NCBI GenBank assembly: GCA_038065355.1
Contig: JBBTRC010000005.1
Location: 30,530 to 94,529, forward strand
Length of the DNA: 64,000 bases
Source: Patescibacteria group bacterium
GTDB lineage: Bacteria; Patescibacteriota; Minisyncoccia; Phycocordibacterales; UBA918
Direction: 5' to 3'
The notes under the pieces were generated by a model that saw only the letters and a program-made list of their open reading frames with translations, had not been told where the DNA came from and made no database searches. Positions 5,979 through 61,887 of the stretch are shown one piece after another. Position numbers and translations under genes: made by a program. Each line of letters begins with the position of its first letter. Within the stretch, counting starts at the first letter, position 1.

Positions 5979-6924
5979 GACGCTTTCGTCGGCGTATGTG
6001 TAGGAAGTAGAGAATCACAATAAGCAGTGAGAAAATCGGCAACAAGACTGAAACTTTGTGCGCGAGTGAAAGCCCAATAAAGCCGAAGCTTGCGACCTGC
6101 AGCGTACCCTCCGGCAAAATACTAAGGCTAAGGTCGCCCTCCTGTTTTATATCTTCCCCATTAAGAATTCGATATCGTGCAATGTAGCTGTCAGCGGGCA
6201 GACGAGTCGGTAATTCGGCCAATACCTCACCGGTCGCGTATGGCGCTATCGGTTTCATTTTGCCAATGTTTTTTGTCTCCTCAAGTAGTACTTTGCCAGT
6301 CCGATCATAAATACGAAAATCCACTTTCGAAGGTGCAATATCGACGTTGCCAGTGTTTTCCACTAACATTTTAAAGCGGATTTTTCCGGGGAAAAATAAC
6401 CACCCGAGCTTGTGCCCTTCGTTTAAATCATCAACGGCCACTTTTCTAATGCGAAAATCTTTTATCTGTTTATCAATGACTGACAACTCAATGTCAACGA
6501 GTGCGCCGAGAGAAATACTCACCGCGCCTATTGCCACTTGTCCGTCCTCCGGCACCGTGCGAATGCGAATCGAACCTTCGTATTCCTTAAACTCAGCATC
6601 AGACGGCACGGTGACCCGTACTGTCATAGGTACCTTTTGTTCACCTCGCGGCAAGGAAATATTTTCACCCTCAACTATTTCTATCCAGGATTCAATTTCT
6701 GGAGCGTCGATGGTGATCTCCGCTTTTTGCGCCACATCAGGGTCACCGCGTACCAGGAGAATTTGCTGTTCATACACTGAGTTGCGAGTCAGGCTGGTGT
6801 TCTTCACATACGGCGGTGTAATACCAAAACCAGCAAAAACATCAGTCACGCCGGCACTGAAAAAAAACACTGGTACCAGCATAGAGACCACACACAGCTG
6901 TCGCGCTAACCCGCCCATGGACAA
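5965..6924 (-). CDS. Tail-anchored cell-surface protein: signal peptide, beta-rich ectodomain, C-terminal TM and RRRKRHGKG tail. Paralogous architecture to 35286..36356.
   Basis: 319-aa ORF. N-terminal signal LVPVFFFSAGVTDVFA. C-terminal LLPIFSLLIVILYFLHI + RRRKR. Overlaps the dockerin gene start by 14 nt. Confidence 0.65.
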   Translation of the reverse strand: MSMGGLARQLCVVSMLVPVFFFSAGVTDVFAGFGITPPYVKNTSLTRNSVYEQQILLVRGDPDVAQKAEITIDAPEIESWIEIVEGENISLPRGEQKVPMTVRVTVPSDAEFKEYEGSIRIRTVPEDGQVAIGAVSISLGALVDIELSVIDKQIKDFRIRKVAVDDLNEGHKLGWLFFPGKIRFKMLVENTGNVDIAPSKVDFRIYDRTGKVLLEETKNIGKMKPIAPYATGEVLAELPTRLPADSYIARYRILNGEDIKQEGDLSLSILPEGTLQVASFGFIGLSLAHKVSVLLPIFSLLIVILYFLHIRRRKRHGKG

Positions 6925-7014: not shown

Positions 7015-8889
7015 TTACCAGTCGGTCGCTTCGGCCGTGACCGCGTAGAAAGTGTTGAGTCCTTGGTAGCTACCAGCGAGCGTGATGGAGATTGGTACGG
7101 AGATACCCCAGTAGGTCACTCCCGAACTTGGAGTTGAAGTGCTCGTTGTTTTGGCGACATCAAGTTCGACTTCTTGCACCGTTGATGAGGAAAGGATAAT
7201 AGCAAGCGGGCTGTTGTATGCCAGTGAGGTCGAGGCGAATTGTTGTTCGCTTTCAGGAATAGTTGAAGTAGCTGAGGGTGCGCATTCACTGCCAATGGCA
7301 AACGTACCGCACATTGATTCACCTTCAACTTCCTGGTCAAGCCCAGTGTTACCCACTGATAAGACAGAGGTAGTTGCGCTGAGCGTGCCGGTGTCGTCAC
7401 CTGGTTCAAGAGACCCGTACGGAATTTGAGCGGTGAGCAAATCAAGCGCAGTGAAACTAATCAGTTCAACCGGGTTGGTAGTCGTGGCCATTGAACTAGT
7501 CGCAAAGTCATCATCTGCCCCAGCTATTCCGACAGACCAGTTATCAGCCGCAAACGCCGCTGGCGTTTCGGGTGCCGCGTCGGTTGGGTCAGCTACGAAC
7601 CATAATGGGAACGTACAAGTATAGTCGAGTTGGTCGACGAATGGGCTGGTGCACTGCGTGCTCGAGGCAGTACAGCTTAAGTTCCAGGTTGTTGTTGCAA
7701 GGCCATTCGGGTAACAATAATTTGGATTATACGAACCAGCCGCGCCGGTACAGGTAGTGGTGCCGTAACTTGATCTGAACACAGATACTACGTAATCGGT
7801 AATCTCTGAACTTGAAGCGGAGGTCAGACAGCTGTTCGCATCACGAACGGTGAAGTCAAGTGTAAAGCCGGTTGTCTCGGCTCCCTCCTGAGTCAACGTA
7901 ATGTTTGAACCACTATTAAGGCTTATATCGCCGCCGAGGACAACCGGCGCAACGTTATTGACGGTGAAGTTTGATTGGTCGGGGTTAGCTAACGCTTCGT
8001 GTCCATGTTCGTCGATAATATAGCCGTAGGCTGGGTAGGGTGCGTCGCGCAAGATTGAAGCCAGCGTGTATGCCGCGTCTGCGTCAGCCGCCACACCGAC
8101 GGTGGTCGAGGCTAAGAAAGCAGATCCGCAAGAGTTGGTGGTAGGGTTGTAGCTGGTGTTGTCACTACAGACAATTAGATATATGTCATCCTCTCCCCCG
8201 ACGGAATCAGGGTCAGTTGAAGTTGAATTAAAGGTCACGATATCCCCGGGATCCTTCGGGCCGTCGTTCCAGACATTAGTCAAGACCGGGCGACTATTGA
8301 CGTTGAACGGTGACGAATTTGTCGCGCTGAAGCCCTGCACTGGCGTTGCATTACAGCGAGGATTGAATGGATCGTCGTCGCAGACCCAGGCGTACCAAGT
8401 GTTGAGTTCTGCGAAAGGTGCTACTTCTGCGGTAGTGGTAGAGACGCTGGCCAGCGCGCCGCTCGCGGCCGCCGTTGAAACTCCCCATTGTGTACCGCCA
8501 CCACAATCAGGCGGAGCGGTGCCTAGGTTGCCCGGACCAGCGGCCGCGTTGGCGGTCGGAGTGGCATTCGAACTACAAACAAGAAGGAAATACGGGGCGC
8601 CGTTACTGTCTGTGGCCACCGCCGCGAACTGGATGGCGGTACCAGAATTAGTGGGTGATGAAGTTGAGGATTCCACCACCTCATAGGCATCGGTTGTAAA
8701 GAAAGGCGGTGTGTTAAGCACCGTGAGCGTCGTCGTGGCCGACTGCGCTGACACCTTACTCAACTGCTGCGTTCCGGCATCAAATATGAAAGCCACCAAA
8801 AACACCGCCAAACCTACAACGGCGGTGAAGATGGTTATTTTTCCAGCGGTCTTTAGGTAGCGCGACTGCTCTTCTTTGTTATACAACAT
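7015..8889 (-). CDS. N-terminally anchored Thr/Ser/Cys-rich surface protein, 624 aa. Ends with the same YWGIxVP...QGxNxF motif as the 5531-aa giant protein.
   Basis: N-terminal TM ITIFTAVVGLAVFLVAFIF. Cys-rich mid region. C-terminus TSTPSSGVTYWGISVPISITLAGSYQGLNTFYAV aligns with the giant protein C-terminus. Confidence 0.65.
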   Translation of the reverse strand: MLYNKEEQSRYLKTAGKITIFTAVVGLAVFLVAFIFDAGTQQLSKVSAQSATTTLTVLNTPPFFTTDAYEVVESSTSSPTNSGTAIQFAAVATDSNGAPYFLLVCSSNATPTANAAAGPGNLGTAPPDCGGGTQWGVSTAAASGALASVSTTTAEVAPFAELNTWYAWVCDDDPFNPRCNATPVQGFSATNSSPFNVNSRPVLTNVWNDGPKDPGDIVTFNSTSTDPDSVGGEDDIYLIVCSDNTSYNPTTNSCGSAFLASTTVGVAADADAAYTLASILRDAPYPAYGYIIDEHGHEALANPDQSNFTVNNVAPVVLGGDISLNSGSNITLTQEGAETTGFTLDFTVRDANSCLTSASSSEITDYVVSVFRSSYGTTTCTGAAGSYNPNYCYPNGLATTTWNLSCTASSTQCTSPFVDQLDYTCTFPLWFVADPTDAAPETPAAFAADNWSVGIAGADDDFATSSMATTTNPVELISFTALDLLTAQIPYGSLEPGDDTGTLSATTSVLSVGNTGLDQEVEGESMCGTFAIGSECAPSATSTIPESEQQFASTSLAYNSPLAIILSSSTVQEVELDVAKTTSTSTPSSGVTYWGISVPISITLAGSYQGLNTFYAVTAEATDW

Positions 8890-8966: not shown

Positions 8967-10190
8967 CTATTCATACCGAATCGCGTCCAGCGGATTGAGA
9001 GATCCGGCACGGCGAGCTGGGAAAATGCCGGTGAGGTAGCCAACGGCGGCGGAGAAAAGTGCGATAAAAAGAAGAAAATCAAGCGGGAACGAAAACAGTG
9101 CCACCGCTTGACCGCCAAATTGACTGGCCAAGACGTTAAGAAAAAGGTTCACCGTCACCCCTAAGGTGACGCCGAGCACAATGCCGCTTAGCCCGCCAAG
9201 AAAACCAACAACGATCGACTCGGAAACGAACAAATTTTTTACATCGTTCGGTGACGCGCCGATGGTGCGCATGATGCCGATTTCTTTGGTACGTTCGAGC
9301 AGTGTCACCGTCATGGTGTTAAACATGCCAATCGCGGACACAACGAGCGCAATGCCACCAAACGTGGCGAGTACCACTTGTATTCCTTGAAAAATCTTGG
9401 AGGCCTGTTCGACGGTCTTTGACAACGCGGTAACGCGGTACCCCTTCTCAATCAGCCAATCTTCAACTGTTGCTAAATTTTCATTCGAATCAACGCGCAC
9501 TTGGATGCGCTCAAATTCTTCTATACCGACGTAATTGCGAAGTTCTGGTAGCATCATCATCACATTGAGTACACCTTCTTCTTTAGTAATGCCGCGTACG
9601 GTGTATTCTTTGTCGATCACAATTTCGTTCACAGCGTCGGTCCCGTCATCGGCCGGCACAAGGAGTCGAAACGACACTTTTTGTCCAATGAACGCATCCA
9701 TTTCTTCGTCAGTAATTCCGAACAATTTTAAAATTGCTGGAGACAGCATAACTGAATTCACATCCCCCGCGTCAGCGTCGGTGAACACCTCTCCGGCGAT
9801 AGCAGTCACGCCGGCGTAGCGAAGATACGGCGGTTCGACTCCCTGCACAAAGACGTTTCCAGTGAGACCCTTGTAGGTGACAAGCGCAGGAAAGCGCGCC
9901 AAGGGTGCCGCATCGAGTACCGCTTCGTTGTTTTCAAATTCGGTAATGGTTTCTGGAGTAAGTCGCAGACCTTGCGCGCCGGTTGAGGAAACGCCGAGTG
10001 AAAGCAGAGTCTCTCCAAAGACAATCTGCTCAAGAATAATTTTTTGCAGGCCGAACCCGAGCCCCACCAAGACAACGACCGCACCGGTGCCGACACCCAT
10101 ACCCAAAATCGTCAACCACGTACGCATCGGGTTGGTTTTGAACATACGCGTCGAAAGCTGTGCCAAGTCTTGCACTCTCACACCAACCAT
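8967..10190 (-). CDS. ABC transporter permease, MacB/FtsX family: N-terminal TM, large extracytoplasmic domain, C-terminal FtsX-type three-TM bundle.
   Basis: 407-aa ORF. Topology and C-terminal region (LATFGGIALVVSAIGMFNTMTVTLLERTKEIGIMRTIGASPNDV) are typical of MacB/LolE-type permeases. Confidence 0.8.
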   Translation of the reverse strand: MVGVRVQDLAQLSTRMFKTNPMRTWLTILGMGVGTGAVVVLVGLGFGLQKIILEQIVFGETLLSLGVSSTGAQGLRLTPETITEFENNEAVLDAAPLARFPALVTYKGLTGNVFVQGVEPPYLRYAGVTAIAGEVFTDADAGDVNSVMLSPAILKLFGITDEEMDAFIGQKVSFRLLVPADDGTDAVNEIVIDKEYTVRGITKEEGVLNVMMMLPELRNYVGIEEFERIQVRVDSNENLATVEDWLIEKGYRVTALSKTVEQASKIFQGIQVVLATFGGIALVVSAIGMFNTMTVTLLERTKEIGIMRTIGASPNDVKNLFVSESIVVGFLGGLSGIVLGVTLGVTVNLFLNVLASQFGGQAVALFSFPLDFLLFIALFSAAVGYLTGIFPARRAGSLNPLDAIRYE

Positions 10191-10210
10191 TATGGCACAT
10201 GCACGATACC

Positions 10211-11533
10211 TTAACTCTTGTAACTCACATCAACTCCCTGTGCGATTACTTTCTCGAAGTAGCGCGTGATATCGTCTGCCTCTTTCTCATCGAGGCCAAG
10301 ACCGCCCGCCCGTACCCCCTTCATCAATCGTTCATTAAATTCTTCATCCTCAATCACACCGGTCACCCGATCAGCAATCAGCTCGGTAAGATTTTCATCC
10401 TGCTCTTTGTTGAGCTTTACTCGGTGTTGTTGGATCAAGTGTTCGCGTAGTCGTTCTGACAATTTGTGCTGACTAAAAAAGATACCGTCGTTGTCTTTGC
10501 GCGCTCTGAATCGCTTGATATCAAGTGCATTCTCCATCATACGACCGGCGATGGTAGCCATTTTGCGCGCTTCTGCCTCCGGCACCTCGACGCCGCCTTT
10601 TTCTAAAGGCAAGACGAGACTTTTTATGTAAGCGTCGCGGTCGATTTTTCCTTTGATAAACATACCCGAAGCGCGCTCCAGCCGGATCAGCTGGTCGAAA
10701 GTGTAGTCTTGCGTCAAATAGTTGACTAAGCTCTTCACTCGGAGCGTGTCCACTGAGTCGTAGGGGTACAGTCGAGCCAGTTGTTCGAGCTCGGTGACGA
10801 TCGTCTCACCTTCCTGCACTGGCTTGATTTGCTTGCGCTGTGGGTTGACGACTTCACGAACGATGAGGCCGTCCTTGAGGTAGTAGACTCGGTGCGCATA
10901 GCTCAAGTGAGCGGCGTTGTGTGACACCATAATGATAGTACGGCGATCGAAGGTGTTGATTTCATCAATTTTATCCATCACTTGCTGTGTCGAAACAGAG
11001 TCAAGGTTGCCAGTTGGTTCGTCTGCGAGAAGAATCTTGGGGTCGTTTACCATCGAACGCGCCACCGACACGCGTTGTTGTTGACCGCCGGAGAGCATAG
11101 CGGGGATTTTATGCGAAACATGCCCCACGCCAAAACGATCGAGAAGCATCTGGGCGCGACGTTCTCTGGTAGTTTTGTCTACGTCGCAAAAAATCATCGG
11201 TAGCGCTACGTTGTCGAGCACCGAGAGCGATTGAATCAGGTTGAATGACTGAAAAATAATTCCCATCACGAAGCGCTGGAAATACACACGCTCGGCCGGC
11301 GGGTACGAATAGATATCGTCACCACGAATGAGGAGCGTGCCCTCGCCAGGCGGAAGTGAGCCTTGAATGGAATACATGAGGGTCGACTTGCCCGAGCCTG
11401 ATGCGCCGAAAAGAATGATGTACTCACCCTCAAAAATATCAGTGTTCACGCCCGTGAGCGCTTTAAATTCGTTCGACTTCCCCTTATTGTAGATAATCGA
11501 AAGATCCCGACAGACGATAAGCGGCTTGGCCAT
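10211..11533 (-). CDS. ABC transporter ATP-binding protein, MacB/LolD-like, with an unusual ~200-aa C-terminal extension of unknown function.
   Basis: Walker A GASGSGKST, ABC signature LSGGQQQRVSVARS and Walker B ILLADEPTGNLD, all within residues ~20-240. Residues ~240-440 carry no recognisable motif. Confidence 0.85.
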   Translation of the reverse strand: MAKPLIVCRDLSIIYNKGKSNEFKALTGVNTDIFEGEYIILFGASGSGKSTLMYSIQGSLPPGEGTLLIRGDDIYSYPPAERVYFQRFVMGIIFQSFNLIQSLSVLDNVALPMIFCDVDKTTRERRAQMLLDRFGVGHVSHKIPAMLSGGQQQRVSVARSMVNDPKILLADEPTGNLDSVSTQQVMDKIDEINTFDRRTIIMVSHNAAHLSYAHRVYYLKDGLIVREVVNPQRKQIKPVQEGETIVTELEQLARLYPYDSVDTLRVKSLVNYLTQDYTFDQLIRLERASGMFIKGKIDRDAYIKSLVLPLEKGGVEVPEAEARKMATIAGRMMENALDIKRFRARKDNDGIFFSQHKLSERLREHLIQQHRVKLNKEQDENLTELIADRVTGVIEDEEFNERLMKGVRAGGLGLDEKEADDITRYFEKVIAQGVDVSYKS

Positions 11534-12323: not shown

Positions 12324-12382
12324 GTGAATGGCCCTCCTTAGGCCGTACAATTCTTGGCAGGATTGCCCTACTTCTATCTTTC

Positions 12383-12593: not shown

Positions 12594-14099
12594 TTATCCG
12601 GCAATGTTCTTAACCCAGCCGAAGGTACTCTCAAAGTTCTCGATAATGAGGTCGATGATGTTTTTTTCTTGAATCGGCGTGAAGAGTACGAAGTTTTCCG
12701 ATTGGACGTCGTTACCGGCTTCGTCGGTACAGGTGAGGTAGAACTGATAGACCGTCGCCGGTGCAAAATCTACCACCACCTCGACGTGCCGCGTGTTGTA
12801 CTCTAATTGCTCTTTCTCAATGGTAAACGGTTCGGTACCGCCGGCGACACCTTCTTGGTAGGTCATGAGACAGTTGGCTGCTTCGTCAGTGTCCCACTCA
12901 ACAATCGTTTGTATGCGCGACTCTCCGCCTGGAAAAAGAGTTGATTCGTTGGTGACGTTGGTGATGATAGGCGCGGCAATGTCGCGAACGGTAATAAATT
13001 GTATCGGTTGGCTACGGATACGGTCGCCGCTTGAATTTTCGGCCGTCACAAAGGCAACGTAGCGGGTGCCGAGCGTAAGATCAGCGAGGCGCATCTGATG
13101 CGTGGTGGCGAGCGTCGGACGTCCGACCGAGCTTTCAGCGCCGGTCGTTTGGTCTTGGTACTCAACGAGCGCCTTCGCCGGCACGGTGGTGTCCCAGGCA
13201 AGCGTGGCGGCGTTTTCTTCTACCTTTACCACTCGCAGGTTGCGGATTTCCGGAGCCGATGCTTTGGTTTTAAATGTGTAGTTGCGGCTCTCGCCGGTAA
13301 TGCCAAAACCGTCGGTCGATTTTACCTTGAAGCTATATTCGGTGAACGCATCGAGTCCGATCAGTTGTATTTCATGATCGGTAGTATCGGCACCAGTTGA
13401 GACTTGTGAAAACGCGTAGCTTGAACCGTCAAAGCCGTTGGTTGGTGAAAAAACTACTTCAGAACTGGCTTCACGGTCGGTTGTCCATTTGATGGTGGCG
13501 GTGGTAGTCTCCGGTAGCACCGTCGGCGGACCAACAATGGTCAAATCCTCAGTAATACCTTGCACAGCTTTGATGGTTTCGTTAATAATTTCCTGCAACT
13601 TTTGAGGGTCGGTAATTTCTTTTATTTGTTCGACGATCTCCTCGGTTTTAATTTCTTCCGTGGTGGCTGTTTGACTGCTCTGTCCTTGTCCTTCCGCTTG
13701 GCCGCTTCCCTCACCTTCTCCGGTTTGCGGGGTGCCTGATGTCTGCACTTTGTAGTCGGCCGAAATGCCTTGATTCCCTTCTTCGTCGGCCGACACGACA
13801 CGGAAGTAGTAGACGCGACCGGGCTCCAAAGCACCGAGCGTAATCGAGTGTGAGGTGCGTTCTGCGACCGGTATGCGCACGATGCCGTAGTCTGGTTGCA
13901 AGCCGTAGTTCACTGATGAGTCGGCATCTTCGTCGGTGTCCCAGGTAATCGTCACGCTGGTTTCGCTGACTTCTTTCACTTCCACGTTGGAAATTTCCGG
14001 AGCTTCTTGATCGCTCGACTGCGCCAAGGTCAAAAGCGGCAACAAAAATAAGAGCGTAACGAGGCGGACTGTGATTGATAAGGACATTTTTTTAATCAT
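12594..14099 (-). CDS. Secreted protein with two fibronectin type III-like domains and a Gly/Glu/Gln-rich linker. Last gene of the giant-protein transcription unit.
   Basis: 501-aa ORF. Signal peptide. FN3-like hallmarks (APEISNVEVKEVSETSVTITWDTDE..., YYFRVVSADEEGN, second module with TEYSFKVKSTDGFG). Start lies 9 nt after the giant ORF stop. Confidence 0.75.
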   Translation of the reverse strand: MIKKMSLSITVRLVTLLFLLPLLTLAQSSDQEAPEISNVEVKEVSETSVTITWDTDEDADSSVNYGLQPDYGIVRIPVAERTSHSITLGALEPGRVYYFRVVSADEEGNQGISADYKVQTSGTPQTGEGEGSGQAEGQGQSSQTATTEEIKTEEIVEQIKEITDPQKLQEIINETIKAVQGITEDLTIVGPPTVLPETTTATIKWTTDREASSEVVFSPTNGFDGSSYAFSQVSTGADTTDHEIQLIGLDAFTEYSFKVKSTDGFGITGESRNYTFKTKASAPEIRNLRVVKVEENAATLAWDTTVPAKALVEYQDQTTGAESSVGRPTLATTHQMRLADLTLGTRYVAFVTAENSSGDRIRSQPIQFITVRDIAAPIITNVTNESTLFPGGESRIQTIVEWDTDEAANCLMTYQEGVAGGTEPFTIEKEQLEYNTRHVEVVVDFAPATVYQFYLTCTDEAGNDVQSENFVLFTPIQEKNIIDLIIENFESTFGWVKNIAG

Positions 14100-14108: not shown

Positions 14109-17100
14109 TTATGGGCCAACCGGCGTAAAGACGTTCTGACCTTGGTGCGGAGCGCTGTTGACGCCAAATGGAACAGCAATGCCCCAGTACACGGTGTCTG
14201 CAACCGGCGGCGTCGTGGTTGTTGGCTTAGACAGATCGACGTTGAGAACTACCGGGGTGGTACTAGAGAGCAAGTTACAGCTGGCACCACAGCCGGAATA
14301 CGTGAAGGTTGAAGTGGCAAACTTCTGCTTTGTCGACGGGATGGTGGAGCTGTAGCCGTCGGTCATGTCGGTACCTTCAACTTCGATATTTATTTCAACG
14401 TTACCTTGGTTTTCAATCGAGGTGGTGGCATTCACCGAGCCGGTGTCTTCCGTTACGGCGACCGAGCCGTAATCTATCGCGCCGTCAATATCAATCGCGC
14501 GCAGTGTATTGAGTTCTTGTCCAATGGATGTTCCAAAATCATAACCACCGCCGGTGTCTTCCACCTCAAGGAACGCAAACCACTCCTCGCCGTCGTAGGC
14601 ACTGCCAGTATCGGTTGGGTCGGCGTGGAAGTAAATATCAGCTTGGCAAGACACGGTGCAACTGTCGCCGGCGCAATCGGTAAATGTACAAGCCGAGCCA
14701 CCGACGCTGTAACAGTTGTTGTTATCGACAGCACAGCTTGCCCCTCCTACGACGCCGCCGCGGTAGAACGTACCGGTAGCGTGAGAGAGGTCAGTGTAGC
14801 CGTTGAGATCCGTTACGGTACCGGTCGCTACGACCGCTGTGGTGGTGCCAGGAAGCAAAGAGATCGCCTCGCCGTTGTTGAGAGTAATGCTGTCAACTAT
14901 CGGGTCAAAGCGAAGGGACATTTTTGCTACTTGCAAGTATGTATCATAGAACGTACCGTTGTCAGTGACGCGGAAACAGAGATTTTCATCAATCACATTG
15001 GATGTTGGCGTGATGACATATTCGAGTTCGGTGTATTCATTTTGGTCAACATCAATGGCACTCGTGGTATTGGAAGGATCTTCGCGCACCTCGCCGGCAG
15101 TGAAGGCGCCTTCGGCATTGACGAGAAGATCGGCAACGCTTGCGCTGTCTGTCACATTATTGGAAGTCTGCATACAGACAGCCGAAGTACCACAGCTGGC
15201 TTGTGGTGGCACCGGAGCGTAGTCTGCTTCATCGACGGCTTCGCAACTCGGCGCGGTATCCTGGGACGCAAATTCAAGCCGAAATTCTTGACCGCCAATT
15301 GCCAGTCCGCTGTTTTCAACGACTACACGTAGGCGCGCCGTGTCGGTCACACTGAAGGTCGCGGCGGTGTTTTGTGCTGCGGCGAAGGATGCTCCTCCAT
15401 CAGCCTGTTCGGCTCCAAAGAGTATGGTTGGTTCGGTCGCGAGGGTCGGTCGTGAGCTAAAGCTGTCAAAGCCTCCTTGATTAAACCAGTAAGTGAAACC
15501 GATACCGCCCGACGTGTACGAGCTGTCAGTCGCCGAGGTGGTCGCGACAAGTGAATGAGAAGCGTCGTAGAGTGATAGGAAGAGTGTATCGTCGGTACCC
15601 CAATCGAGTTCAAACTCATACCAACCGGTAGTGAAAGATACATCGGCGGTCGCGAGTGTGGCGCCAGATGATTCATTTTCAGTTACATCTTCCACGACTG
15701 CGATATGGTCAGTGCCAGGCAACTCAACACAGACCGCGTAGTTGTCGTTTGGCACGTTGGTACCTTGAACGGCAAATTTTGTACATGTCTCGTCGGAAGT
15801 GCCAGCCGTGTCGACGTACTGCCAAAAGCGAATTGTTTCTCCCTGACTGACGGTTTGACCAAATCTGTAAATACCGCCGAGATTCGCTCGACCAGTGGTG
15901 TTGCCGCTGTTGTCGAGACCATAGGTGCCGTCGTAGGCAAACGAGGTGCCTGTGTTGAAAAGACTTGTCTGTCCGCTGTATTCCGAAATATCATCATCTT
16001 CAAAGTCGTCGGCCGCTATAAACACGTCGGTGCTTGAACTGGTAGTGGTAGCGGTTGGGTTGTTGTAATACATGTAGACAGTTGCGGTTTCCTCGGCCGG
16101 TAGTGTCGCAACTTGTACCCACACTTCAGCGATCGTGCTCGCGGTCGTGGAGCCGATCCAGAACGGAAGAGTGGTAGTACCGCTCTCATCGGTAAAGCGA
16201 AGATCGCCAAAATCAGCTTGCATGTCGGAGTCATATTCCACGTACAATTGCACTGCAGCGTTGGTGTAGTTCGTGGCATCAGCGTTTACGACTCGCACTT
16301 GTTTCCGTGCGTTCCAGGCCGCGTCATACCACTCGCTGTCAGGCACTCCCAGTCCGCCGTCGTCATTCCGCCAACGGTAGCCTGTCTGCTGGGTGAGGAG
16401 ACAAGCACTGTCGCTCCAGCGCACCGACCCGCAGTCATCAACTCCGTCGACATCAAAGGCTTCACCGTCGAGGTTACCGGTATGGCTGACAAACGTCCAG
16501 GCGTTGCTGGTTGAACCAGTCATAGTGATGTTCGCTCCACTAATAGCAGTGGTGGTGGCGAAGCGGTTGCCGGTGTGGACCATCGACGCGTTGGCGTTTA
16601 GTGTCGTTGAGGAAAGCGTGAGCAAGGTGCCGCCGTCTACCGCGAGTTCAAAATCTCCGTATGAAAGAGAAGTAATGGCTGGAGTGCCGGATAGTGAAAG
16701 TCCGTTGGCACCAAGATTTCGAAAGATATAACGCTGTGCATTCAGCGTACCACCCGCCACATTGACACTGTAAGTACCACTGCCTTGATTGGTGATGGTG
16801 GTTTCATTTCCACTCTCGCCAACAACTGCCAACGAACCGCTCAAAAGTGTAGTTGTAGCATTCGCTTCGTGTTGCACTGTGACCACTCGCTCGCTACCAA
16901 GAAGACTCACACCATCGAAGTCGGTGGCATAGCTCCAATATTCAGAAGTGGTACCGATAGTGAAGTCGCCATAAATATTCAACGCTCCGTCGACCGCATT
17001 GTGATCTTGAGAGTAGAGCGAGGCGTTCGCCGCGACGGTTGAAGTCGCTCTCGAGTTCCACATGCGAATGTCACTGGCGGCACCGATAGTGAGGCCGTCG

Positions 17101-20100
17101 TACACGTCGCCGCCCGTAGTTTTGGTGTTGAGCGAATAGGCGTTCGCACCATCAAGGGCTAGAGCACTGCCAGTCCAAGTCGTCGCGGCTCCGCCGACAC
17201 TGTTTAAGAACACACCTTCCACTTTTAATGTAGCTCCAGACTGTAAAGTGAAGCTACTCGCGCTCGCCAACGTAAAGTTGTTGGTAGTCGTCGCGGAAGC
17301 CGCCAGCGTGTAGCCCCCGGTCGGTGCACCAATTTGCACGTTGTAGAACGAACTCACGCCTGGATCAATGAATTCCCCACTATCGGAAGAGTTGAACAAC
17401 ACAGTATTTGAAGCGTGAGAGAAGGTGCCGCCACTCGCATCAAAACTGCCGCCGACAGACAGTGTGCCTGATGCCAGCGTGACGTTTCCGTCGGTAATAA
17501 AGACGCTGTCGAGGAAGGTAATATCTTCATCAAGCATGGTGTAAGCGCCTCCGCCAGCGAAGTTGACCGCGTAGAGGTCGGAGCTCGATGCCAAGAGTGT
17601 GGCCGTGGTGGCGTTGATGAGTTTCAAGTCAGCGGTGTTGTGGATGATAGACCCACCAGTATTTGCGAAGTCACCGCCGACAGTGAGACGGCCAGACGGT
17701 AGAGTGATGGTACCGCTTTCGACGGTAAAGACACCGGTCGTGGTGGCGTTGGTGTCGCCCCAGGTGTAGGCGGCGCCGGAAAATGTGACGCCGGCTAGAT
17801 CAGATCCCCCTTCTGTCACAATGCCTGATCCGGTAAAGAGCGCGTGGCCACCATTGGCATCAAAGGTGCCTCCAGTCTGTACCAGCGATCCGGCAAAAGT
17901 AGATGTGCCGATCGGGAACGTGAGTGCACCCGCACTTTTACGCAGATTGCCATCTACGGTGAGCGTGTTGTCCGAAATAACCCAACTTCCCGAACCAGTA
18001 AAATCAAGATGGTGAAAAGAGTGTTCATTCACGTCGATAGTTCGAGCGGCGCCGGTTGTGGTAAACGTCGTCGTGCCATTGCTACTGACAAAATCGGCGT
18101 TGTTACCAAGAATCATACTGCCGCCGACACTGAGAGTTTCTGTACCTTGTCCAGTCCAGAGCGCATCAGCGTGAAGCTCAAGTGTTCCGTCATAGTCGGC
18201 TCCGGCGCCACCGCCAGCCACCGTTACGTTTCCACTCGGCGCAAATTCTTTGGCGTCCCACACAATGAGTTTTCGATTGGCCGGCAAGATGAGTGTGTCG
18301 GTACCGGCATTGACGGCGGTGAATGGAATATCTGCGTCGTCTCCAGAGTCCCATACCGCGAGATCGGCAATGGTAATAGGGTTCACGTTTTCATGGCGCA
18401 CAATCACTCGATTTTCGTAGATATCCAAATCGCCAATGTTTGAGATTGGTTCTTTGGTCACAGTGGCACCCTCTGACGAAGTGCCGCTTATGTACACGAC
18501 AAGTGAGTCGGTGGTACCGTACGAGACATTGGAAATACTGTACGCGCCGGTCGTTGCGTTGCAACTAGCGGTGTACGACGTGATACCGGCCACTGTAAGC
18601 ACGATCACGTTGCTACTGCCGTCGCACACATTTGAAACGGTCGTTCCTTCGTCGCTGTAGACTGCGCCCGCGACCGTGATGAGTGCGGCTGAGTCATCCC
18701 ACGCCACATAACCTGGGTCTCCGCCCGGATCAACGTCATTGGCTTCTCCGTCAATGTCACCGTAGTGATTGGCAAAGCGCCACGCACTGACCGTCGTGCC
18801 GGTGGCGGTGACATTGAATGCACTGCCGACGCCATCGAGTGCAAAGCGGTTTTGTGTGAAGTTCTTGGCTGGGTTATTGGTGATGACCGAGCCGCCGACC
18901 GTTATCGCCGAACCACCGGTTTGCGATACTCCGAAATCCCCGTTTGAAAGTGTAGTCACCTGTGGCAAACCAGTGAAGATGATTCCGTCACTGCCCGTAT
19001 CGCGCACTTCGTAATAGCGAAGCGACGTTGAGGCGGTGCCGCCGATGGTGAGGGCATACGTGCCAGCACCTTGATTTTGTAAGGTCGTTGATGCCGACGA
19101 AACTCCGTAGACTGCGAGCGCGCCGCCGGTGTAGAGCGCGCTAGCTCCAGGGGCAAAGTACACATCAGTTTGGCGCTCGCTACCACTAAGATTAGTACCG
19201 TCAAAATCAGTGCTGTAACTCCAATGATCGGTACCGGTTGATTTTCGGTAAGCTCCCCAAATGTACAGATCACCATTTTGCGCCCCGTGATCTTGCGAGT
19301 AAAGCGACGCAGTGCTTTCTACATCATACGTACCAGCACTCGAGTTCCACATGCGAATTTGTGTGGTGTCGCCAATCGACAAAGTGTCGTAGGAATCGGT
19401 GGTAGTCGCGGTGTTGATACTGTAGTTACCACCGCCATAGAGACGCAAGGTGGCGCCAGTCCAGGTAGTGGCGGCTCCTCCTTCATCATTTACAAAGGTG
19501 CCACCAACCGCCAACACTTGCCCACTACCGGCGGTGAAAGTGTTGGCATTTAGCAGTCTCCAGGCGACGGTCGCAGTGGCGTGCTCGGTTATGGTAATGT
19601 CACCAGTCGTGTTTATGACGACATTGCCAAAACTACTCGTACCGGCGGCAATTATTTGCGTACCCGCGCCGTCAAATGTGAGCGTGCCATTGTTGCTCGT
19701 GAACACACCGTTATTTTCGTAATTGCCAGCCACCGTGAAGCTTGCAGTATCGCTCGCGCCGAGAGTACCATTGCTTTCGATGAAAACATCTCCATTCACA
19801 TCAAGCGCCGGATCACTGGTCGAGAGGTTAAAAGTCGTAGCGGCCGCACCGCCGATAGAAAGGTCATTGTCGACGATGATGCCAAGACCAGTGGCGGTGT
19901 AGGTAGGTGAACCAACAGCAGCGTTTAGTTCTAAATTATAGTACCGAGTTGAAAGCACGTTAGCCCCAGCGCCACTGTAGCGAATAGTGCTGGTGTCTTC
20001 TAAGAGTGTGCCGTTCTCAATAAATACTGTGCCCGTACCGGCTAAATCCCAAGCAGTACCACCGGCGTCGAGGAAGTGAGCGGGAGCGATAGTAAGTCGC

Positions 20101-23100
20101 CCACTTATGGTCGTGGTACTTGTAAATACCGGCGTAGTGGTGCCAATATCTATGCCATCACCGAGTTGTAAGTTGTAGAAAGTCCAAGGGCTCGTGCCGC
20201 CGAGAGTGTTGGTGTTGGCAATCGTCGTCGTACCAGCGCCAAAGGAAAGTATGCCGTTACCGCTTAATGAGCCGTTTTGAAGCGTAATGTCACCAGTACC
20301 GGTCACCGTGCCGGCAGTAAGCGTGAGGTCGCCATTGGTCACAATGTCTGCCCCCACATTCCAACTGCCCCCACTTCCGTTGAATTCAAGCTCGTTGAAT
20401 GCAATCGTACTGCTCGCGGTGATGCTCTTGCCGGAACTGGTAGCGTTCATATGCACCGTCGTACTGGCCGCGTCAAAGGTGGCGCCGTTTTCAAGCACGA
20501 GGCGGCCGCCAATAGTGAGGGTGCTGGTGCTATAGGCGTTCATAGTCGCATTCTCACCTAGGTACAATGTGCCGTCATAACTATTGGCGGCCGCGTTTGC
20601 TGCCAAAGTAACAACCCCATTCGGAGTAAACGTAGATGACGCAAAGACAAAAAGTTCAGTTCCAGCCAGCGTAGTGAGTGTGTTGGGGTTTGAAGTAGTG
20701 GCGGCCAAATAGCGCAGGTCGGTGTCGTTTGAAAAATCATACGTAGCCAAGTTGGCAATGGTAAGTGCTTCGGTATCTTCGTTCCGCACTATCACGCGGT
20801 TGACGTAAATATCCAAGTCGGTAATATCAGCGGTCGGTGTGCGGGTCACTACGCTACCCCGCTCATCACCAGAGGCGTCATCAAGATAGATGGTGAGCGT
20901 CGGGTCACCCACTATCACAATTCCCCCGATGCTATAGGTGCCGTCGACGTTGCTACAACTGCCAGTGTAGGATGCTCCGTTTTCGACTACCACCCGCACA
21001 ACCTGATCGACTCCGTCACAAGTGCCACCGACAAGTGGAGTGGTGCCCGCGTCGCTGTAAACCGTTCCGGCAACCGTAATGGCAAGCGAACTGTCATCAA
21101 AACGGACCGAACCAGGGTCGCCAGTGTCGTTGTCAAAATTTTCTCCATACAAATTGCCGCTTCCCTCTCTAAACCACCAGAATGAGGTTGGGGCGCCGTC
21201 AGTTTGGGCTACGTTAGTAGCAGAAATTGCCGTCGTAGTGGCAAAGTTCACATTGAAAATCTGCTTTGCCGGATTGGCATTAATGGTAGTTGAGGAGAGT
21301 GTGATCGCGGTGCCGCCACCTGCCGCGACCGTGTAGGAACCATCACGTAAATTCGACACATAGGTACCTCCAAGTAGAGATAGGCCAGAGAGACCGAGGT
21401 CAGTAAATTCGTAATATTGTGCCGTGGTGGTTCCGCCTGTCACCGCTACCGTGTAAGTACCAGTACTTTGATTTCTGATTGTGGTTGATGCGGTACTAGT
21501 ACCTGTGATGGAGAGCGTGCTATCGGTGAATGACGCAGTCGCATCAGAGGCAAAGCGTACGTCGATCGCTCGCTCGCTTCCACCTGCGAGCGAGGCGCCA
21601 TCAAAGTCGGTGGCGTAACTCCAGTGCTCAGTGCCGCTTGTCCGCGTGTAATCACCGAAAATGTAGAGGTCGCCGTCTACCGCTCCGTGATCTTGCGAGT
21701 AGAGTGCGCCGCCGCTTTGGGTAGAGTAGGTCGTTGCCGACGAGTACCACATCGCCACCTGTGTACTCGTGCCGACGGAAATGGTGTGATAGGCATCGCC
21801 GTTATCAACTTTAGAGTTGAGACTGTAGGAACCTGATCGGAGCGCGAGCGTCGCACCAGTCCAAGTAGTCGATGCGCCGCCGACGTTGTTGGTAAAAGTT
21901 GCTCCGACAGAAAGAGTTTGGCTCGGTGCGAGGGTAAAATCACTGGCGTTTGTTAAAGCAAAGCTGTTGGTAGTAGTCGCAGGCGCAGCTATCGTCCAGC
22001 CACCCGTCATACTATTGAAAGTAACGTTGTAGAGAGCAGAGTTACCAAAATCAACGATCTCGCCCGCATCGGTTGAATTAAAGAGGATGGTTCCAGAACC
22101 CGGCAACACCGAGGCGGCGTTTTGGTACGAGCCGCCAAGCGCGAGGGTGGCGCTTGGCAAAGAAAGCGTGCCTTGTGCGATGAAAAGGTCACCAGTCATG
22201 GTGGCAGTGGTGTCACTAAACGACCACGAACCAGAGCCATCAAATTGGACAGAATGATACGTCGAGCCGCCGGTTGTGAGAACTTCCGCAACGCTACTAT
22301 AAAACAAGAGAGTGCCGGTGCCGCCAGCAAAACTGCCGCCACCGTCAATGAGGGTACCGCCAATAGCAAACACGCCGGCTGGAAAGTTCAACGTCCCTTG
22401 CAAGACTCGAACGTCGTTCGTGCTGGTAGCGTTGATATCAAGTACAGTCCAACTGCCACCACCGTTGAAGGTGAGGTTGTTGGCCACATTGGTGAAGGTG
22501 CCGCCAGCAAAGGTGAGTGTCTCGGCGGCGTTTGAAGTGAAGTACAGGGTTCCGTTATTGTGTGCAAAGGTGCCGCTTGTTACTAGGAACGATCCGCCGA
22601 CGGTGGTCGTGGCAGTCGGAAGCGTAACCGTACCGGCCGTTACTTGTACATCGTTGCTCGCGTGGAGCGTCGGTTCTGTAAATGACCAACTACCGCCACT
22701 GCCATTGAAGGTAAGATCGTAGAATGCATCGCCGGCAGTGGTAATCGCGTGCGTAGAACTCGTGGCGGCAAACCTCACTTCGCCCGAGCGAGAAACGAAA
22801 TTGTTTTGGTTGTTCCATCGTCCATACACGGTGATATCGAAGTTGCTGGTTGAGGCGTCGAGCGTGTCGTTGGCACCAATTGTGATCGACTCGGCTGTTA
22901 CTGTGCCGGCCAGAGTGACTATTTTTGAAGTACCATCGACCACTACGTGACCGACATTCTGTTTCACTACATTCTGATCATTCCAAGTTGATGCTGTATT
23001 GCCGTCAAAAGTGGTGGTACCGATTCCCGTCCAAAAACCGCTAACGCCTGTGACTACGTTGCCTGCAACTGTTATCGCAGTCGTGCCACGTGCGAGGGTG

Positions 23101-26100
23101 CCTCGATTGACCGATAGGTTGCCATCAACATCAAGCGCGGTAAGCGGTGTCCAGGCACCACTACCGGTCGTCGTACCAAACGTGAGATTCGCGAAGGTGG
23201 TGTTAACGGCTCCAGTGTTGTCAATTGTTTCTGATGTGCTGGTGGCCGAAAACACAACCGTCGATCCGGTTAGTGTCGTCGTGGCGTTGTTGTCCCATGA
23301 ACCATTCACCTCGTGTGTGTACGAACCGGCGACAAAGATACCGTTATTTTCAAAATCATGAGTGACAAAGCGGCCGCCCGGTGTGTAGTACGTATCGGCA
23401 AGGATGTGGAGTTCCACATCTGTACAACCGCCACCGGCACACAATGAAAGGGTTGACCCGGAGAGGTCAAAGAAAACATCTTCGGTGTTTGTGAAATCGT
23501 AGAGACCGATATCGGCATCTGTGAGCGGAGTGGTAGTAGCATCGTTTGAACCGAGCGTGAGATGCCGCTCGTAGAGTACCATGCCATCAATATCACCTTG
23601 ACCATCGTACCTGGTCACGCCAACCGCCTCGTTTGCATCTGGCGCCGAGGTGACAAACACACTAACCACGTCGCCGGGGAAAGCGGTGACATTACTTATG
23701 CTCCAAGTGCCGCCGCCGACAGTGCCGGTCTTACCTGTCTGCAACACACCATTGACTGCAACCGCTACTGTGCCGCTCGTCACCGCTGTCGCTTGGTCAT
23801 ACTCGGCGATGGTGCCTGAAACGGTAATACCGCCCGCCCAGTCAATTTTCCAATCTGAAATGCTGGGGCAATTGCCTGACCCGTCGCAAGCAAGTTCAGC
23901 GTACGGACGAATGACATTGTAAGTATTGGTATTGAGATTACTAAGATCAAACGGCCCGGTTGTGGTACCGGCGACGTTACCCGGGAGATCTGCGTCCGGA
24001 ATAAAAGCCCAACTACCAGTCGCGGTGTAGTACTCTAGATGGTAACTGGCTACACTCGTACCTGGCGTGGCGTCATTCCACGAAAATGAGTCCCAGTAGG
24101 GGCCAGTCCCATCATTGAAATCTAGAGCCGGACTCACTACCGTCGTACCCTCACGACCGGGGTTGCGCGGAGCGAGAGAATAAGGATGGCCGAAAGGCGA
24201 AGTGTCAACTGACGCGTTTGTTTCAAGAGCTGAGAGGCTTGACCAGGTCGTGCCGTTCCAGGTGCTCGCTTGGTACGTATCAGATGGATCGTCAAAGAAG
24301 ACGCCGAGAATGGTGTTGTCGCCCGCTCGCGCCAACTGCAAAGTTGCGTTGTCACCGAGCGTGTCAACATTGCTGATCGACGACCAGGTGCTGGCGTTGT
24401 AAGTGAAGTAGCCAACTGCCGTAGTCGTACTGATGGCAGTCATGATGTAGCCGTTTCTGCCAGTGGTGTCTTCATACACGCAATCAAAACCCGGGTCTGT
24501 TTTGGCATTTCCATTGGCATCAGTCACTAACTCGGTTTGTCCGGCCCACGCCGAACCCGTCCAACGTACCACCCCCGCCGCCGTATCTTCATCCTGGTAA
24601 CAAAGAACCATCGCGTCACTGCCCACATCCCTCGACAACCGGGCCCACTCAAGATCATCACCAATGGCTTCTGTGGCGGCGGTCCCCCAAGTCGTTCCGT
24701 TCCAACTGTTCCAACGAAAACGAGCCGGATTGCCGTCTGAGGTCACAATGAGCGCTTGACCGCCGCTCTCTTCATACATAACCGCCATACCCTCATGAGC
24801 AGTGTCAACGATACTTCCCTGCGTCGTGGCATTACCCCAGCTACTGCCGCTCCAGACTTGAGCCTCATACTGGTTGCCAGCAGCATCCCGGGCCAGGAAG
24901 ACTATTTCGTCCGAAGTTGGGTCGGCCGCCAGCTGTAACCATTCACAATTGCTGGTGCTGTTGAGGTTAATCGTGCCACCGCTCGTCCATCCGGACCCGT
25001 TCCATATATAGTAGCTTGGGTCTGCGTCACCGTCACAGTACGCTACCAGGGCATCACCAGAGTTCGTTTCGTAGGCGATGTCAAAACCTTGCGCATTTAT
25101 GTTGCCGACGTTAGTTGTTAGTTCAAGCAAGTTAGCCCATTCGCCCGTCGCAAAAACTTGCACGTTCACGTCGGCGTCAGACCCGGCAGTGGCGGCCACA
25201 TATTCTTCCCTGGTGGCGCCTGCCTCTACCACTACCCTGCGGAGAGGCGCGCCGATATCAAGAAGGGTGCCTTCACTGCCCCAAAGAGAGCCGTCCCATT
25301 GCCGATAACGAGGCTGTGTCTCCGTACCCTCTCCATATACCAACATCGCCTCAGTGGCTGTGGTTGCCACCGTCACGGTATCGTTCGAAAGCGCAATAGT
25401 TCCTGAGAGAATATTAGAATCAAATTGCTCTTCTGTAGTTTGAAACCAGGTCGAAACGTCCGTGCCCGGTACCATAGTAAAACTTCTCGCTTCAGTCCAA
25501 AATGAGTAGGCATCGTCACCAGTCGTGTCTTTGGCCCGTACCCGCCACCAGTACGTTGTCGAGCCTGATAGTGCGTCTGCCGGCTGAATCGTAAATTGAA
25601 TCGTCTCGCCAGAATTAAATGGATCGGTATCCAGACCGGTGTCGATATTGGTAAATCCAGCAGCCGTGTCGGAGGTCCGGGTGGTCGAGGAAGTAAAATC
25701 GGGCGTAAGCGACCATTGAAGTTGATACGTGAGACTATCGTTTTGCGGATCGGCGGTTGTAAATTCAAATGTTGGTGTGGTGGTACCCACTTGCTCGTTG
25801 GCAAATAATTTTGTAATAGTCGGTGTCTCAACTCGATAGCCCCAATTGATGGTCCAGTCCTGGAGCGAAGGCGAACCACCTGAATTTGTAAACGTGGCGA
25901 CGATCCGCAGTACGTTGTACGTGTCGGTATCGAGCGTCAAGAGAGAGACCGGTGAGGTGTCAAAGCCGCTGCTGTTGCCGGTGAGCGCTGAATCCGGCAC
26001 CAACGACCAGGTATCGTCGGTATCCAAATATTCAATCTGGTATTTAATATCGCCGGCGGTTTCGGTGTCAGAGAAAACAAAGTTGTCCCAGGCGGTGCCC

Positions 26101-61839: not shown

Positions 61840-61887
61840 CGCTCTAGGAATTTCCTGATAGTGGCTAGGGTTGGGTTTTCATTTTTT

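What the first reader, a model, noticed from the sequence alone, without database searches (positions are those of the whole stretch)
14109..14195. Shared C-terminal YWGIxVP...QGxNxF motif on two otherwise unrelated surface proteins
The giant protein ends ...KPTTTTPPVADTVYWGIAVPFGVNSAPHQGQNVFTPVGP. The 624-aa protein encoded at 7015..8889 ends ...KTTSTSTPSSGVTYWGISVPISITLAGSYQGLNTFYAVTAEATDW. Both have a Thr-rich linker, then (V/T)YWGI(A/S)VP(F/I), ~10 residues, then QG(Q/L)N(V/T)F, directly at the C-terminus. Neither is followed by a TM segment. Both proteins have N-terminal anchors. A short conserved C-terminal tag on cargo proteins of one locus is how sorting or secretion signals look (compare T9SS CTDs, PEP-CTERM, LPXTG). 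This tag matches none of those, so it may mark a locus-specific recognition, processing or cell-wall attachment signal. It could also be the epitope bound by the neighbouring cohesin-like proteins.
Basis: seen in the sequence. Interest (0 to 1): 0.7.

Follow-up and report, generated by a model that had tools for sequence, protein, structure and literature searches.

The report
Shared C-terminal Ig-like docking module
The short "tag" is the last two beta-strands of a folded, unannotated C-terminal domain of about 260-300 residues, which a giant surface protein and a smaller neighbour inherited from a common ancestor; it is widespread in ultra-small (CPR) bacteria and probably docks both proteins to a common partner rather than acting as a sorting signal.

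Summary
The motif is real. Both ORFs end with (V/T)YWGI(A/S)VP…QGxNxF. But the two proteins are not "otherwise unrelated". They share about 260-300 homologous C-terminal residues (BLASTP E 2e-20; independent profiles E 2e-33 and 2.7e-36).

AlphaFold2 folds the giant's last 253 residues into two Ig-like beta-sandwiches (pLDDT 96.6). YWGIAVP and QGQNVF lie in the last two strands, and the "Thr-rich linker" is an ordered loop.

The module has no Pfam, NCBIfam or PDB sequence match. It is found in at least 2,115 protein clusters, apparently all Patescibacteria, and lies at the extreme C-terminus in 148 of the top 150.

Best reading: a non-covalent docking or assembly domain that works like WxL/WxLIP. 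It is not a linear sorting tag and not a cohesin epitope. The function is inferred, not shown.

The parts
14109..14195 (-). The finding itself: last 28 codons plus stop of the giant ORF. It holds YWGIAVP (penultimate beta-strand), a 13-residue loop and QGQNVF (last beta-strand).
   Evidence: Translation. In the AF2 model, strands E224-232 and E246-251 have pLDDT 96-98. This is the most conserved 8-mer of the module.
14109..14897 (-). C-terminal module of the giant protein (residues about 5270-5531): two tandem Ig-like beta-sandwiches with conserved cysteines, an ADPTD motif and the YWGI/GxNxF hairpin.
14109..30704 (-). Giant protein, 5531 aa. It has one N-terminal hydrophobic segment (residues 28-55), DUF2341 and Ig_Rha78A_N domains, no internal repeats, and the module at its C-terminus.
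   Evidence: It is 45-60% identical to 35 orthologues along its last 3,300 aa.
7015..7116 (-). Tail of the 624-aa protein: TYWGISVPISITLAGSYQGLNTFYAVTAEATDW plus stop. Most orthologues end in Trp or within three residues after it.
7015..7932 (-). C-terminal module of the 624-aa protein (residues about 320-624), homologous to the giant's module.
   Evidence: Giant-only profile hits residues 320-618, E 2.7e-36. BLASTP.
7015..8889 (-). 624-aa protein: N-terminal hydrophobic segment (14-41, weak TadE/G-like hit), about 280 residues of its own, then the shared module.
   Evidence: An orthologue is present in every related locus whose contig reaches that far.
5965..6924 (-). 319-aa protein directly downstream: signal peptide, invariant FGITPPYV segment, two beta-sandwich domains and a C-terminal TM helix. 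Candidate membrane-anchored partner of the module.
8967..11533 (-). MacB-type ABC transporter pair between the two module genes: a permease with MacB_PCD and FtsX domains (8967-10190), and a 440-aa ATPase, roughly twice the length of the Pfam ABC_tran match (10211-11533).
   Evidence: Pfam. Median identity is about 80% across more than 40 loci. The pair is absent between the module genes in L053 and L054.
12594..14099 (-). 501-aa secreted protein with fibronectin-III repeats. It starts 9 nt after the giant's stop codon, so it is probably co-transcribed.
   Evidence: Pfam fn3 and Pur_ac_phosph_N. Synteny in 46 loci.

Best explanation
Shown: YWGIxVP…GxNxF is the last two beta-strands (a hairpin) of the final Ig-like beta-sandwich in a two-sandwich C-terminal module of about 260-300 residues. 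The giant protein and the 624-aa protein share this module by common descent. It defines a large, unannotated family of Patescibacteria surface proteins and is almost always at the extreme C-terminus. Module-bearing genes come in sets: a large one with a variable payload plus a smaller one, sometimes consisting of the module alone. A conserved gene follows them, encoding a protein with a signal peptide, two Ig-like domains and a C-terminal TM helix (p319 here).

Inferred mechanism: after Sec export, the module serves as a common, non-covalent docking or assembly domain. It holds both proteins on the same envelope partner, most likely p319. This is how the C-terminal WxL domains of large and small WxL proteins are held by the membrane-anchored WxL-interacting protein in Firmicutes, perhaps by beta-strand augmentation. 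The conserved Y/W/I/V/P and G-N-F residues are then fold-core and edge-strand residues of that domain, not a linear signal. In the Kaiserbacteria-like clade, the MacB-type ABC pair may add ATP-driven mechanical work outside the membrane.

The stated confidence is for the whole package. The 'folded homologous domain, not a linear tag' part alone is about 0.9. The docking-to-p319 part is about 0.35.
For: - Homology of the two ends over about 260-300 residues.
- AF2 gives pLDDT 96.6 with the motif inside strands E224-232 and E246-251.
- The family is large: 2,115 representatives at E<=1e-3 and 916 at E<=1e-30. In 148 of the top 150 the match ends within 11 residues of the protein end.
- The motif is conserved in both subfamilies across 48 genomes.
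- Two members carry a beta-propeller insertion of about 400 residues inside the last sandwich, yet keep the hairpin to close it.
- Gene order is fixed in 48 genome loci.
- In L054 the large module protein, the small one and the p319 homologue sit together with no ABC or fn3 genes between them. In L053 the p319 homologue likewise follows the two module genes directly.
- Small proteins consisting of the module alone exist.
- p319 has invariant segments (FGITPPYV at 33-40; FGF.GLS at 280-286) that fall in low-pLDDT regions. That is what a segment that orders on binding would look like.
- WxL biology is taken from PMC9772566 and PMC10599100.
Against: - No interaction was tested or modelled.
- The p319 model is only moderately confident (pLDDT 66.5, pTM 0.38), and Ig-like folds match many things.
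- The p319 family gives no Pfam WxLIP hit, and the module gives no Pfam WxL hit.
- The module is no more conserved than the rest of the giant protein, so conservation does not single it out as the partner-binding part.
- If the N-terminal segments are permanent anchors, the module would sit at the distal tip rather than at the cell surface.
- Synteny links the module equally well to the ABC pair and the fn3 protein in the main clade.
Confidence: 0.55

Rival explanations
1. Distal adhesin tip. Both proteins stay anchored by their N-terminal TM segments. The shared C-terminal tandem-Ig module is the far end, which contacts the host cell or a substrate.
For: Each protein has one N-terminal hydrophobic segment and no C-terminal anchor. 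Structural matches include two-domain tip adhesins and pilins such as CsuE, CfaB and CsuA/B. CPR bacteria are often epibionts (general knowledge; abstracts listed).
Against: The module is conserved across many genera and is no more variable than the rest of the protein. Proteins consisting of the module alone exist. Payload domains (DUF2341, LamG, BNR, Kelch, propellers) are the variable parts, while the module is the constant one. That pattern suits a base better than a specificity tip.
Confidence: 0.2
2. Folded C-terminal secretion or assembly signal, read by the co-encoded MacB-type ABC transporter. In concept this resembles T9SS C-terminal domains or T1SS C-terminal signals.
For: The module is almost always C-terminal. 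The ABC ATPase and permease genes lie between the two 'cargo' genes in more than 40 loci and are the best-conserved genes of the cluster. T9SS C-terminal domains are also folded Ig-like sandwiches (established knowledge).
Against: Both proteins have Sec-type N-termini. MacB/FtsX-type transporters are not known to export polypeptides across the cytoplasmic membrane (established knowledge). In L053 and L054 the two module genes and the p319 homologue are adjacent with no ABC genes between them. In P0255 the module is internal, followed by a Kelch domain. The extreme C-terminal residues vary in sequence and length in the giant subfamily. There is no T9SS, PEP-CTERM or T1SS family hit.
Confidence: 0.12
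3. Pilus-like polymerisation. The terminal Ig domain takes part in donor-strand exchange, as in chaperone-usher or CPR Pam pili, with p319 as a membrane-anchored chaperone.
Against: The monomer model is a complete, very confident sandwich closed by its own C-terminal strands. The module gives no hit to NCBIfam CPR_Pam_pilin_C. A 5531-aa subunit is an unlikely repeating pilin.
Confidence: 0.08
4. Epitope bound by the neighbouring cohesin-like proteins, or a sortase-type covalent attachment signal.
For: A cohesin domain protein lies next to the giant gene (30818-32356; Pfam Cohesin 31.1 bits, above the 24.1 cut-off). A class F sortase is in the window.
Against: Two proteins in the locus carry canonical dockerins, which are the expected cohesin ligands. 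There is no LPXTG-like motif, TM segment or charged tail after the motif. The sortase gene overlaps a 1381-aa SpaA/SdrD-like gene whose product does end in a TM segment plus RTRTENA.
Confidence: 0.04

Closest known systems
WxL domain proteins and the WxL-interacting protein (WxLIP; DUF916-DUF3324-TM) of Enterococcus, Listeria and Lactobacillus (PMC9772566, PMC10599100)
   Same: A beta-rich domain that always sits at the C-terminus. Its best-conserved motif is a Trp-x-aliphatic strand close to the end. It is carried by both a large multidomain protein and a small protein in one gene cluster. The cluster also encodes a protein with a signal peptide, two Ig-like domains and a C-terminal TM helix, whose closest structural match here is WxLIP itself.
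   Different: There is no sequence match to Pfam WxL or WxLIP models. Only one W-x-[ILV] motif lies in the terminal sandwich; the other invariant Trp is in the preceding sandwich. The module is about 260-300 residues (two sandwiches) against 160-190. The hosts are Patescibacteria, not Firmicutes. The main clade adds a MacB-type ABC pair and an fn3 protein. No peptidoglycan binding is known.
Pam pili of CPR bacteria and classical chaperone-usher pili (bioRxiv 10.64898/2026.03.03.709456)
   Same: CPR-specific Ig-fold surface proteins, assembled without an outer membrane by PapD-like proteins anchored through a C-terminal TM helix. Genes like Pam pilins and Pam chaperones lie in the same clusters. 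In chaperone-usher pilins the C-terminal strand is both a fold element and the chaperone-recognition motif (established knowledge).
   Different: The module does not match CPR_Pam_pilin_C, and it models as a self-complete fold. The carriers are a giant protein of about 5,500 aa and a 600-aa protein, not 35-55 kDa repeating pilins.
T9SS C-terminal domains, LPXTG and PEP-CTERM sorting signals
   Same: A conserved C-terminal element shared by several exported proteins. T9SS C-terminal domains are also Ig-like sandwiches.
   Different: There is no family hit, no cleavage or sorting motif, and no TM segment plus basic tail. No T9SS-type family was matched by the window proteins that were scanned. 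The module can be internal or split by insertions.

Membership tests
WxL domain (Pfam PF13731) | Match to the WxL profile | tested here: not met
   No Pfam hit at E<=1 for either window module or for any of 72 family members.
WxL domain (Pfam PF13731) | Two Trp-x-Leu motifs on adjacent antiparallel strands of one domain | tested here: inconclusive
   One invariant W-G-[ILV] lies in the penultimate strand (W229). The only other invariant Trp (W97, W-x-A) lies in the first sandwich according to the secondary-structure map. Model coordinates could not be inspected.
WxL domain (Pfam PF13731) | Always the C-terminal domain, present on a large and a small protein of one cluster | tested here: met
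   148 of the top 150 representatives end with the module. Large plus small pairs occur in all loci examined that extend far enough.
WxL domain (Pfam PF13731) | Cluster encodes a WxLIP (DUF916-DUF3324-TM) | tested here: inconclusive
WxL domain (Pfam PF13731) | Non-covalent binding to peptidoglycan or the cell surface | not testable with these tools
   Needs biochemistry.
Sortase (LPXTG-type) sorting signal | LPXTG-like pentapeptide, then a hydrophobic segment, then a basic tail at the C-terminus | tested here: not met
   No such motif or TM segment lies in the last 60 residues of either protein. The 1381-aa protein next to the class F sortase does end in a TM segment plus RTRTENA.
T9SS C-terminal domain / PEP-CTERM | Match to the curated CTD or PEP-CTERM models; PEP motif plus TM segment plus Arg-rich tail | tested here: not met
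   No NCBIfam or Pfam hit at E<=1. No TM segment after the motif.
Type I secretion C-terminal signal | HlyB-type ABC exporter with membrane-fusion protein; substrates lack an N-terminal signal | tested here: not met
   The adjacent ABC system is of MacB_PCD/FtsX type. Both proteins have N-terminal hydrophobic segments.
Pam / chaperone-usher pilin | Truncated Ig fold completed by a donor strand; match to CPR_Pam_pilin_C | tested here: not met
Dockerin (cohesin ligand) | Duplicated Ca-binding EF-hand-like Dockerin_1 repeat | tested here: not met
   No Dockerin_1 hit in the module. Dockerin_1 is found instead in 4845-5978 and 32919-34814.

The most novel reading that the evidence does not exclude
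The module and p319 are the core of a previously undescribed, Patescibacteria-wide surface-display system. In it, a constant C-terminal tandem-Ig 'base' docks interchangeable payload proteins, up to about 7,700 aa, onto a membrane-anchored WxLIP/PapD-like receptor by strand augmentation. One clade adds a MacB-type mechanotransmitting ABC pump as an energy source. The system would be an independent or very remote counterpart of the Firmicute WxL/WxLIP system and of the CPR Pam pilus chaperones. It would link all three into one ancient family of monoderm anchoring machines.
Probability: 0.25. Interest if true: 0.7.

Novelty: new variant of a known kind. Interest (0 to 1): 0.45.

Why it matters
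Patescibacteria (CPR) have tiny genomes. Yet many Paceibacteria devote about 17 kb to one gene and keep a fixed ten-gene surface cluster around it, and none of the cluster's non-transporter proteins has an assigned function. Three results make the giant proteins tractable. First, the giant and its small neighbour share a defined, confidently foldable C-terminal module. Second, this module is the constant part of a large family with swappable payloads. Third, a WxLIP/PapD-like membrane protein always follows. Together these give a concrete binding hypothesis that can be tested with two small recombinant domains. They also supply a domain definition that could be added to Pfam or NCBIfam to annotate thousands of 'hypothetical' proteins. 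The sub-threshold WxLIP_PGBD hits of the Pam-chaperone-like proteins hint that Firmicute WxL clusters and CPR pili share assembly components.

Tried and rejected
- Intramolecular Lys-Asn isopeptide (K215, N246 of GxNxF, acidic EVEG): rejected. K and N are only about 90% conserved (K to Q; N to T, D or S in several members). From the strand order they should lie at opposite ends of the sandwich.
- Pfam, NCBIfam and PDB-sequence searches of the module found nothing.
- The afdb50 fold library was unavailable.
- The search for related loci with the mixed alignment failed for lack of a conserved stretch. It was repeated with the giant-type alignment.
- I tested whether the module is more conserved than the rest of the giant, which would point to a partner-binding base. 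It is not: identity is a uniform 45-60%.
- I looked for further copies of the module or motif in the window. There are none beyond the two.
- I looked for internal repeats in the giant. There are none at E<1e-5.
- Literature searches found no description of this cluster or module.
- A mixed-family profile suggested a shared region of 350-385 residues. Because both subfamilies were in that alignment, I rely instead on the single-subfamily profiles, which give about 260-300 residues.
Full report
**1. The observation**

The giant ORF 14109..30704 (-, 5531 aa) ends ...KPTTTTPPVADTVYWGIAVPFGVNSAPHQGQNVFTPVGP*. ORF 7015..8889 (-, 624 aa) ends ...TYWGISVPISITLAGSYQGLNTFYAVTAEATDW*. In all six reading frames of the window, YWG[IVL] and W[GA][ILV].[ILV]P occur only at these two C-termini. 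Neither is followed by a TM segment, and each protein has a single N-terminal hydrophobic segment. So the reported motif is there.

The proteins are not "otherwise unrelated". Three comparisons show this:
- BLASTP aligns 239 columns at 33% identity, E 2e-20.
- A profile made only from 36 orthologues of the 624-aa protein hits giant residues 5270-5527, E 2e-33.
- A profile made only from 35 giant orthologues hits residues 320-618 of the 624-aa protein, E 2.7e-36.

The motif is therefore the end of a homologous C-terminal module of about 260-300 residues. Outside the module the two proteins show no similarity.

**2. What the module is**

AlphaFold2 was run on the giant's last 253 residues with a 72-sequence alignment. 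It gave mean pLDDT 96.6 and pTM 0.86. The model is all-beta, with two tandem Ig-like sandwiches. YWGIAVP (residues 228-234) lies in strand E224-232, and QGQNVF (243-248) runs into the last strand, E246-251. The "Thr-rich linker" KPTTTTPPV is the ordered loop before that hairpin (block pLDDT 96-97).

Conserved positions are spread over the whole module. They include six cysteines, ADPTD, NNCY, IDYG, GN and Q.FA. VYWGIAVP is the single most conserved 8-mer (3.54 bits against a mean of 2.50), but several other motifs come close. That explains why a reader without tools saw only the tail.

No Pfam or NCBIfam model matches either window copy, and no Pfam model recurs among 72 family members scanned. 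No solved structure matches by sequence. Fold searches give only generic Ig-like matches:
- Foldseek finds tandem-Ig proteins such as RbmA, antibody light chains, CsuE and CfaB, with TM-score at most 0.38.

**3. Distribution**

An exhaustive profile search found 2,115 cluster representatives at E<=1e-3 and 916 at E<=1e-30. Carriers include giants of 5,000-7,700 aa and proteins of about 600 aa. The sources that give a name call them Parcubacteria, Kaiserbacteria, Paceibacterota or Patescibacteria.

In 148 of the top 150, the module ends within 11 residues of the protein end. The exceptions are informative:
- P0255 has the module followed by a Kelch propeller.
- P0253 has about 107 extra residues after the module.
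- P0245 and P0249 carry beta-propeller-like insertions of about 400 residues inside the last sandwich. They still finish with ...KPTS...YWGL.IP...G.(N/D)TF..., which closes the sandwich.

This is how a structural element of a domain behaves, not a linear terminal signal.

The two subfamilies have different ends. The giant type ends about 24-28 residues after YWG, with variable last residues (TPVSP, AIGD, ATSD and others). The 624 type ends about 32 residues after it, mostly in Trp.

**4. Genomic context**

Forty-eight genome loci from Paceibacteria-type MAGs were fetched, plus two metagenome loci. All show the same gene order as the window:
1. giant protein
2. fn3 protein (about 500 aa)
3. ABC ATPase (440 aa)
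4. MacB_PCD/FtsX permease
5. 624-aa-type protein
6. 319-aa protein
7. dockerin protein
8. a 385-aa protein with a weak CPR_Pam_pilin_C hit
9. further TM-anchored proteins (the homologues of the 352-aa and 584-aa ORFs)

Median identities to the window proteins are FtsX 82%, ABC 78%, fn3 68%, p319 65%, giant C-terminus 54% and p624 52%.

Three divergent loci are more telling:
- L054 comes from a 1.1-Mb contig. It has a 1493-aa module protein, then a 562-aa full-length orthologue of the 624-aa protein, then a p319 homologue. No ABC or fn3 genes lie between them.
- L053 has a module-plus-Kelch protein, then a 308-aa protein that is essentially signal peptide plus module, then a p319 homologue. After that come a dockerin-type protein and homologues of the 352-aa and 584-aa window proteins. 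The contig begins at the first module gene, so what lies upstream is unknown.
- L052 has three to four module proteins in tandem, including a 304-aa module-only protein.

The recurrent core is therefore a large module protein, a small module protein and p319. The payloads (DUF2341, LamG, BNR, Kelch, propellers) vary.

**5. p319**

The 319-aa protein (5965-6924) has a signal peptide and an invariant FGITPPYV segment. Two beta-sandwiches and a C-terminal TM helix follow. Its AF2 model is only moderately confident (pLDDT 66.5, pTM 0.38).

The invariant segments 33-40 and 280-286 fall in the low-pLDDT stretches of the model. This is compatible with segments that order on binding, but it is an inference.

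**6. Mechanism**

Shown: the tag is part of a folded, homologous C-terminal module with a conserved genomic partner set.

Inferred: the module is a common docking or assembly domain that attaches both proteins non-covalently to one envelope partner, most plausibly p319.

The closest worked-out analogy is the Firmicute WxL cluster. There, a large and a small protein both end in a WxL domain. A protein built as DUF916-DUF3324-TM (WxLIP) is proposed to bind and stabilise that domain, and AlphaFold predicts that one of its beta-hairpins inserts into it (PMC9772566, PMC10599100). The CPR Pam pilus offers a second analogy, with PapD-like chaperones anchored by a C-terminal TM helix (bioRxiv 10.64898/2026.03.03.709456).

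I could not model complexes. No coordinates were available for inspection. The interaction therefore remains a hypothesis, at about 0.35.

**7. Rivals**

- A distal adhesin tip is possible if the N-terminal segments are permanent anchors (0.2). It fits poorly with the module being the constant part of the family and with module-only proteins.
- A folded secretion or assembly signal for the MacB-type ABC pair (0.12) is weakened by several points. Both proteins have Sec-type N-termini. MacB/FtsX systems are not known to export polypeptides. The L053 and L054 loci have no ABC genes between the module genes. P0255 has the module in an internal position.
- Donor-strand polymerisation (0.08) is weakened by the self-complete monomer model and by the lack of any Pam-pilin match.
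The locus has a real cohesin (30818-32356) and two real dockerins (4845-5978, 32919-34814). The class F sortase (42804-43442) overlaps a 1381-aa SpaA/SdrD-like gene whose product ends in a TM segment plus a basic tail.

**8. Novelty and verdict**

The interpretation as a linear sorting tag is not supported. The broader intuition, a shared C-terminal recognition element for proteins of one locus, survives as a folded domain.

The module is an unannotated domain family of considerable size. With p319, it forms an arrangement that resembles WxL/WxLIP without being a detectable member of that family. I file it as a new variant of a known kind, with interest 0.45.

Noticed in passing
window 42804-43442 (-) and 43435-47580 (-): A class F sortase (NCBIfam 164.7 bits, just under the 166 cut-off) overlaps by 8 nt the end of a 1381-aa gene with SpaA, SdrD_B and CarboxypepD_reg domains. 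That protein ends ...VPFGGANTGTGSDDTAAVFTLLVILLAALTVRTRTENA, a TM segment plus basic tail but no canonical LPXTG. It may be a sortase substrate with a variant motif in a CPR bacterium.
   Followed up: partly
window 3399-4556 (-), 36482-37636 (-), 35286-36356 (-); L054 6999-9967: Two paralogous proteins of about 385 aa end ...Y(T/N)(A/T)TLTY(V/I)ATP(V/T)F and give sub-threshold hits to NCBIfam CPR_Pam_pilin_C (E 1e-3 and 1e-4). A protein with a signal peptide, an Ig-like domain and TM helices lies next to the second paralogue (window 35286-36356). Two similar proteins flank the L054 homologue. All three of these give sub-threshold, near-full-length hits to Pfam WxLIP_PGBD (E 5e-5 to 4e-3). This suggests Pam-like pili in Paceibacteria and a remote link between Pam chaperones and WxLIP.
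   Followed up: partly
window 30818-32356 (-), 479-2233 (-), 2226-3284 (-), 4845-5978 (-), 32919-34814 (-): This looks like a cohesin-dockerin set. The 512-aa protein has a Pfam Cohesin domain above threshold plus a C-terminal TM segment and a coiled-coil tail. The 584-aa protein has a similar N-terminal sequence and layout (TM segment near the C-terminus, charged tail). The 377-aa and 631-aa proteins end in nearly identical Dockerin_1 repeats.
   Followed up: partly
window 14109-30704 (-): The 5531-aa protein has no internal repeats detectable by BLASTP (E<1e-5). It is uniformly 45-60% identical to 35 orthologues over its last 3,300 residues. That is unusual for a giant surface protein; such proteins are usually repetitive and variable.
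   Followed up: partly
window 11793-12350 (-): A 185-aa ORF with a lipoprotein-like signal (…LSLTGC) lies between the fn3 and ABC genes. It has no counterpart in any of the 50 related loci compared, so it is either a lineage-specific insertion or not a gene.
   Followed up: partly
window 10211-11533 (-): The ABC ATPase of the MacB-type pair is 440 aa, and its ABC_tran match covers only residues 26-174. This length recurs in the two loci with called genes, and the protein is about 78% identical across 45 loci. The function of the long C-terminal part is unknown.
   Followed up: no
window 60001-62000: GC content drops to 0.37, against about 0.51 elsewhere. The drop covers a queuosine-salvage gene (60153-61124) and a methyltransferase gene (61099-61839), directly beside tRNA-Ser(GGA) at 61888-61975. 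This may be a small horizontally acquired islet.
   Followed up: partly
P0245, P0249, P0255 (loci L052, L051, L053): Some family members have a beta-propeller-like repeat region of about 400 residues inserted inside the last Ig sandwich of the module. One has a Kelch propeller appended after the module. The module thus acts as a scaffold that tolerates large loop insertions.
   Followed up: yes
window 37934-39196 (-): A 420-aa protein resembling UmuC or DNA polymerase IV (Y-family polymerase) is encoded between the surface-protein clusters.
   Followed up: no
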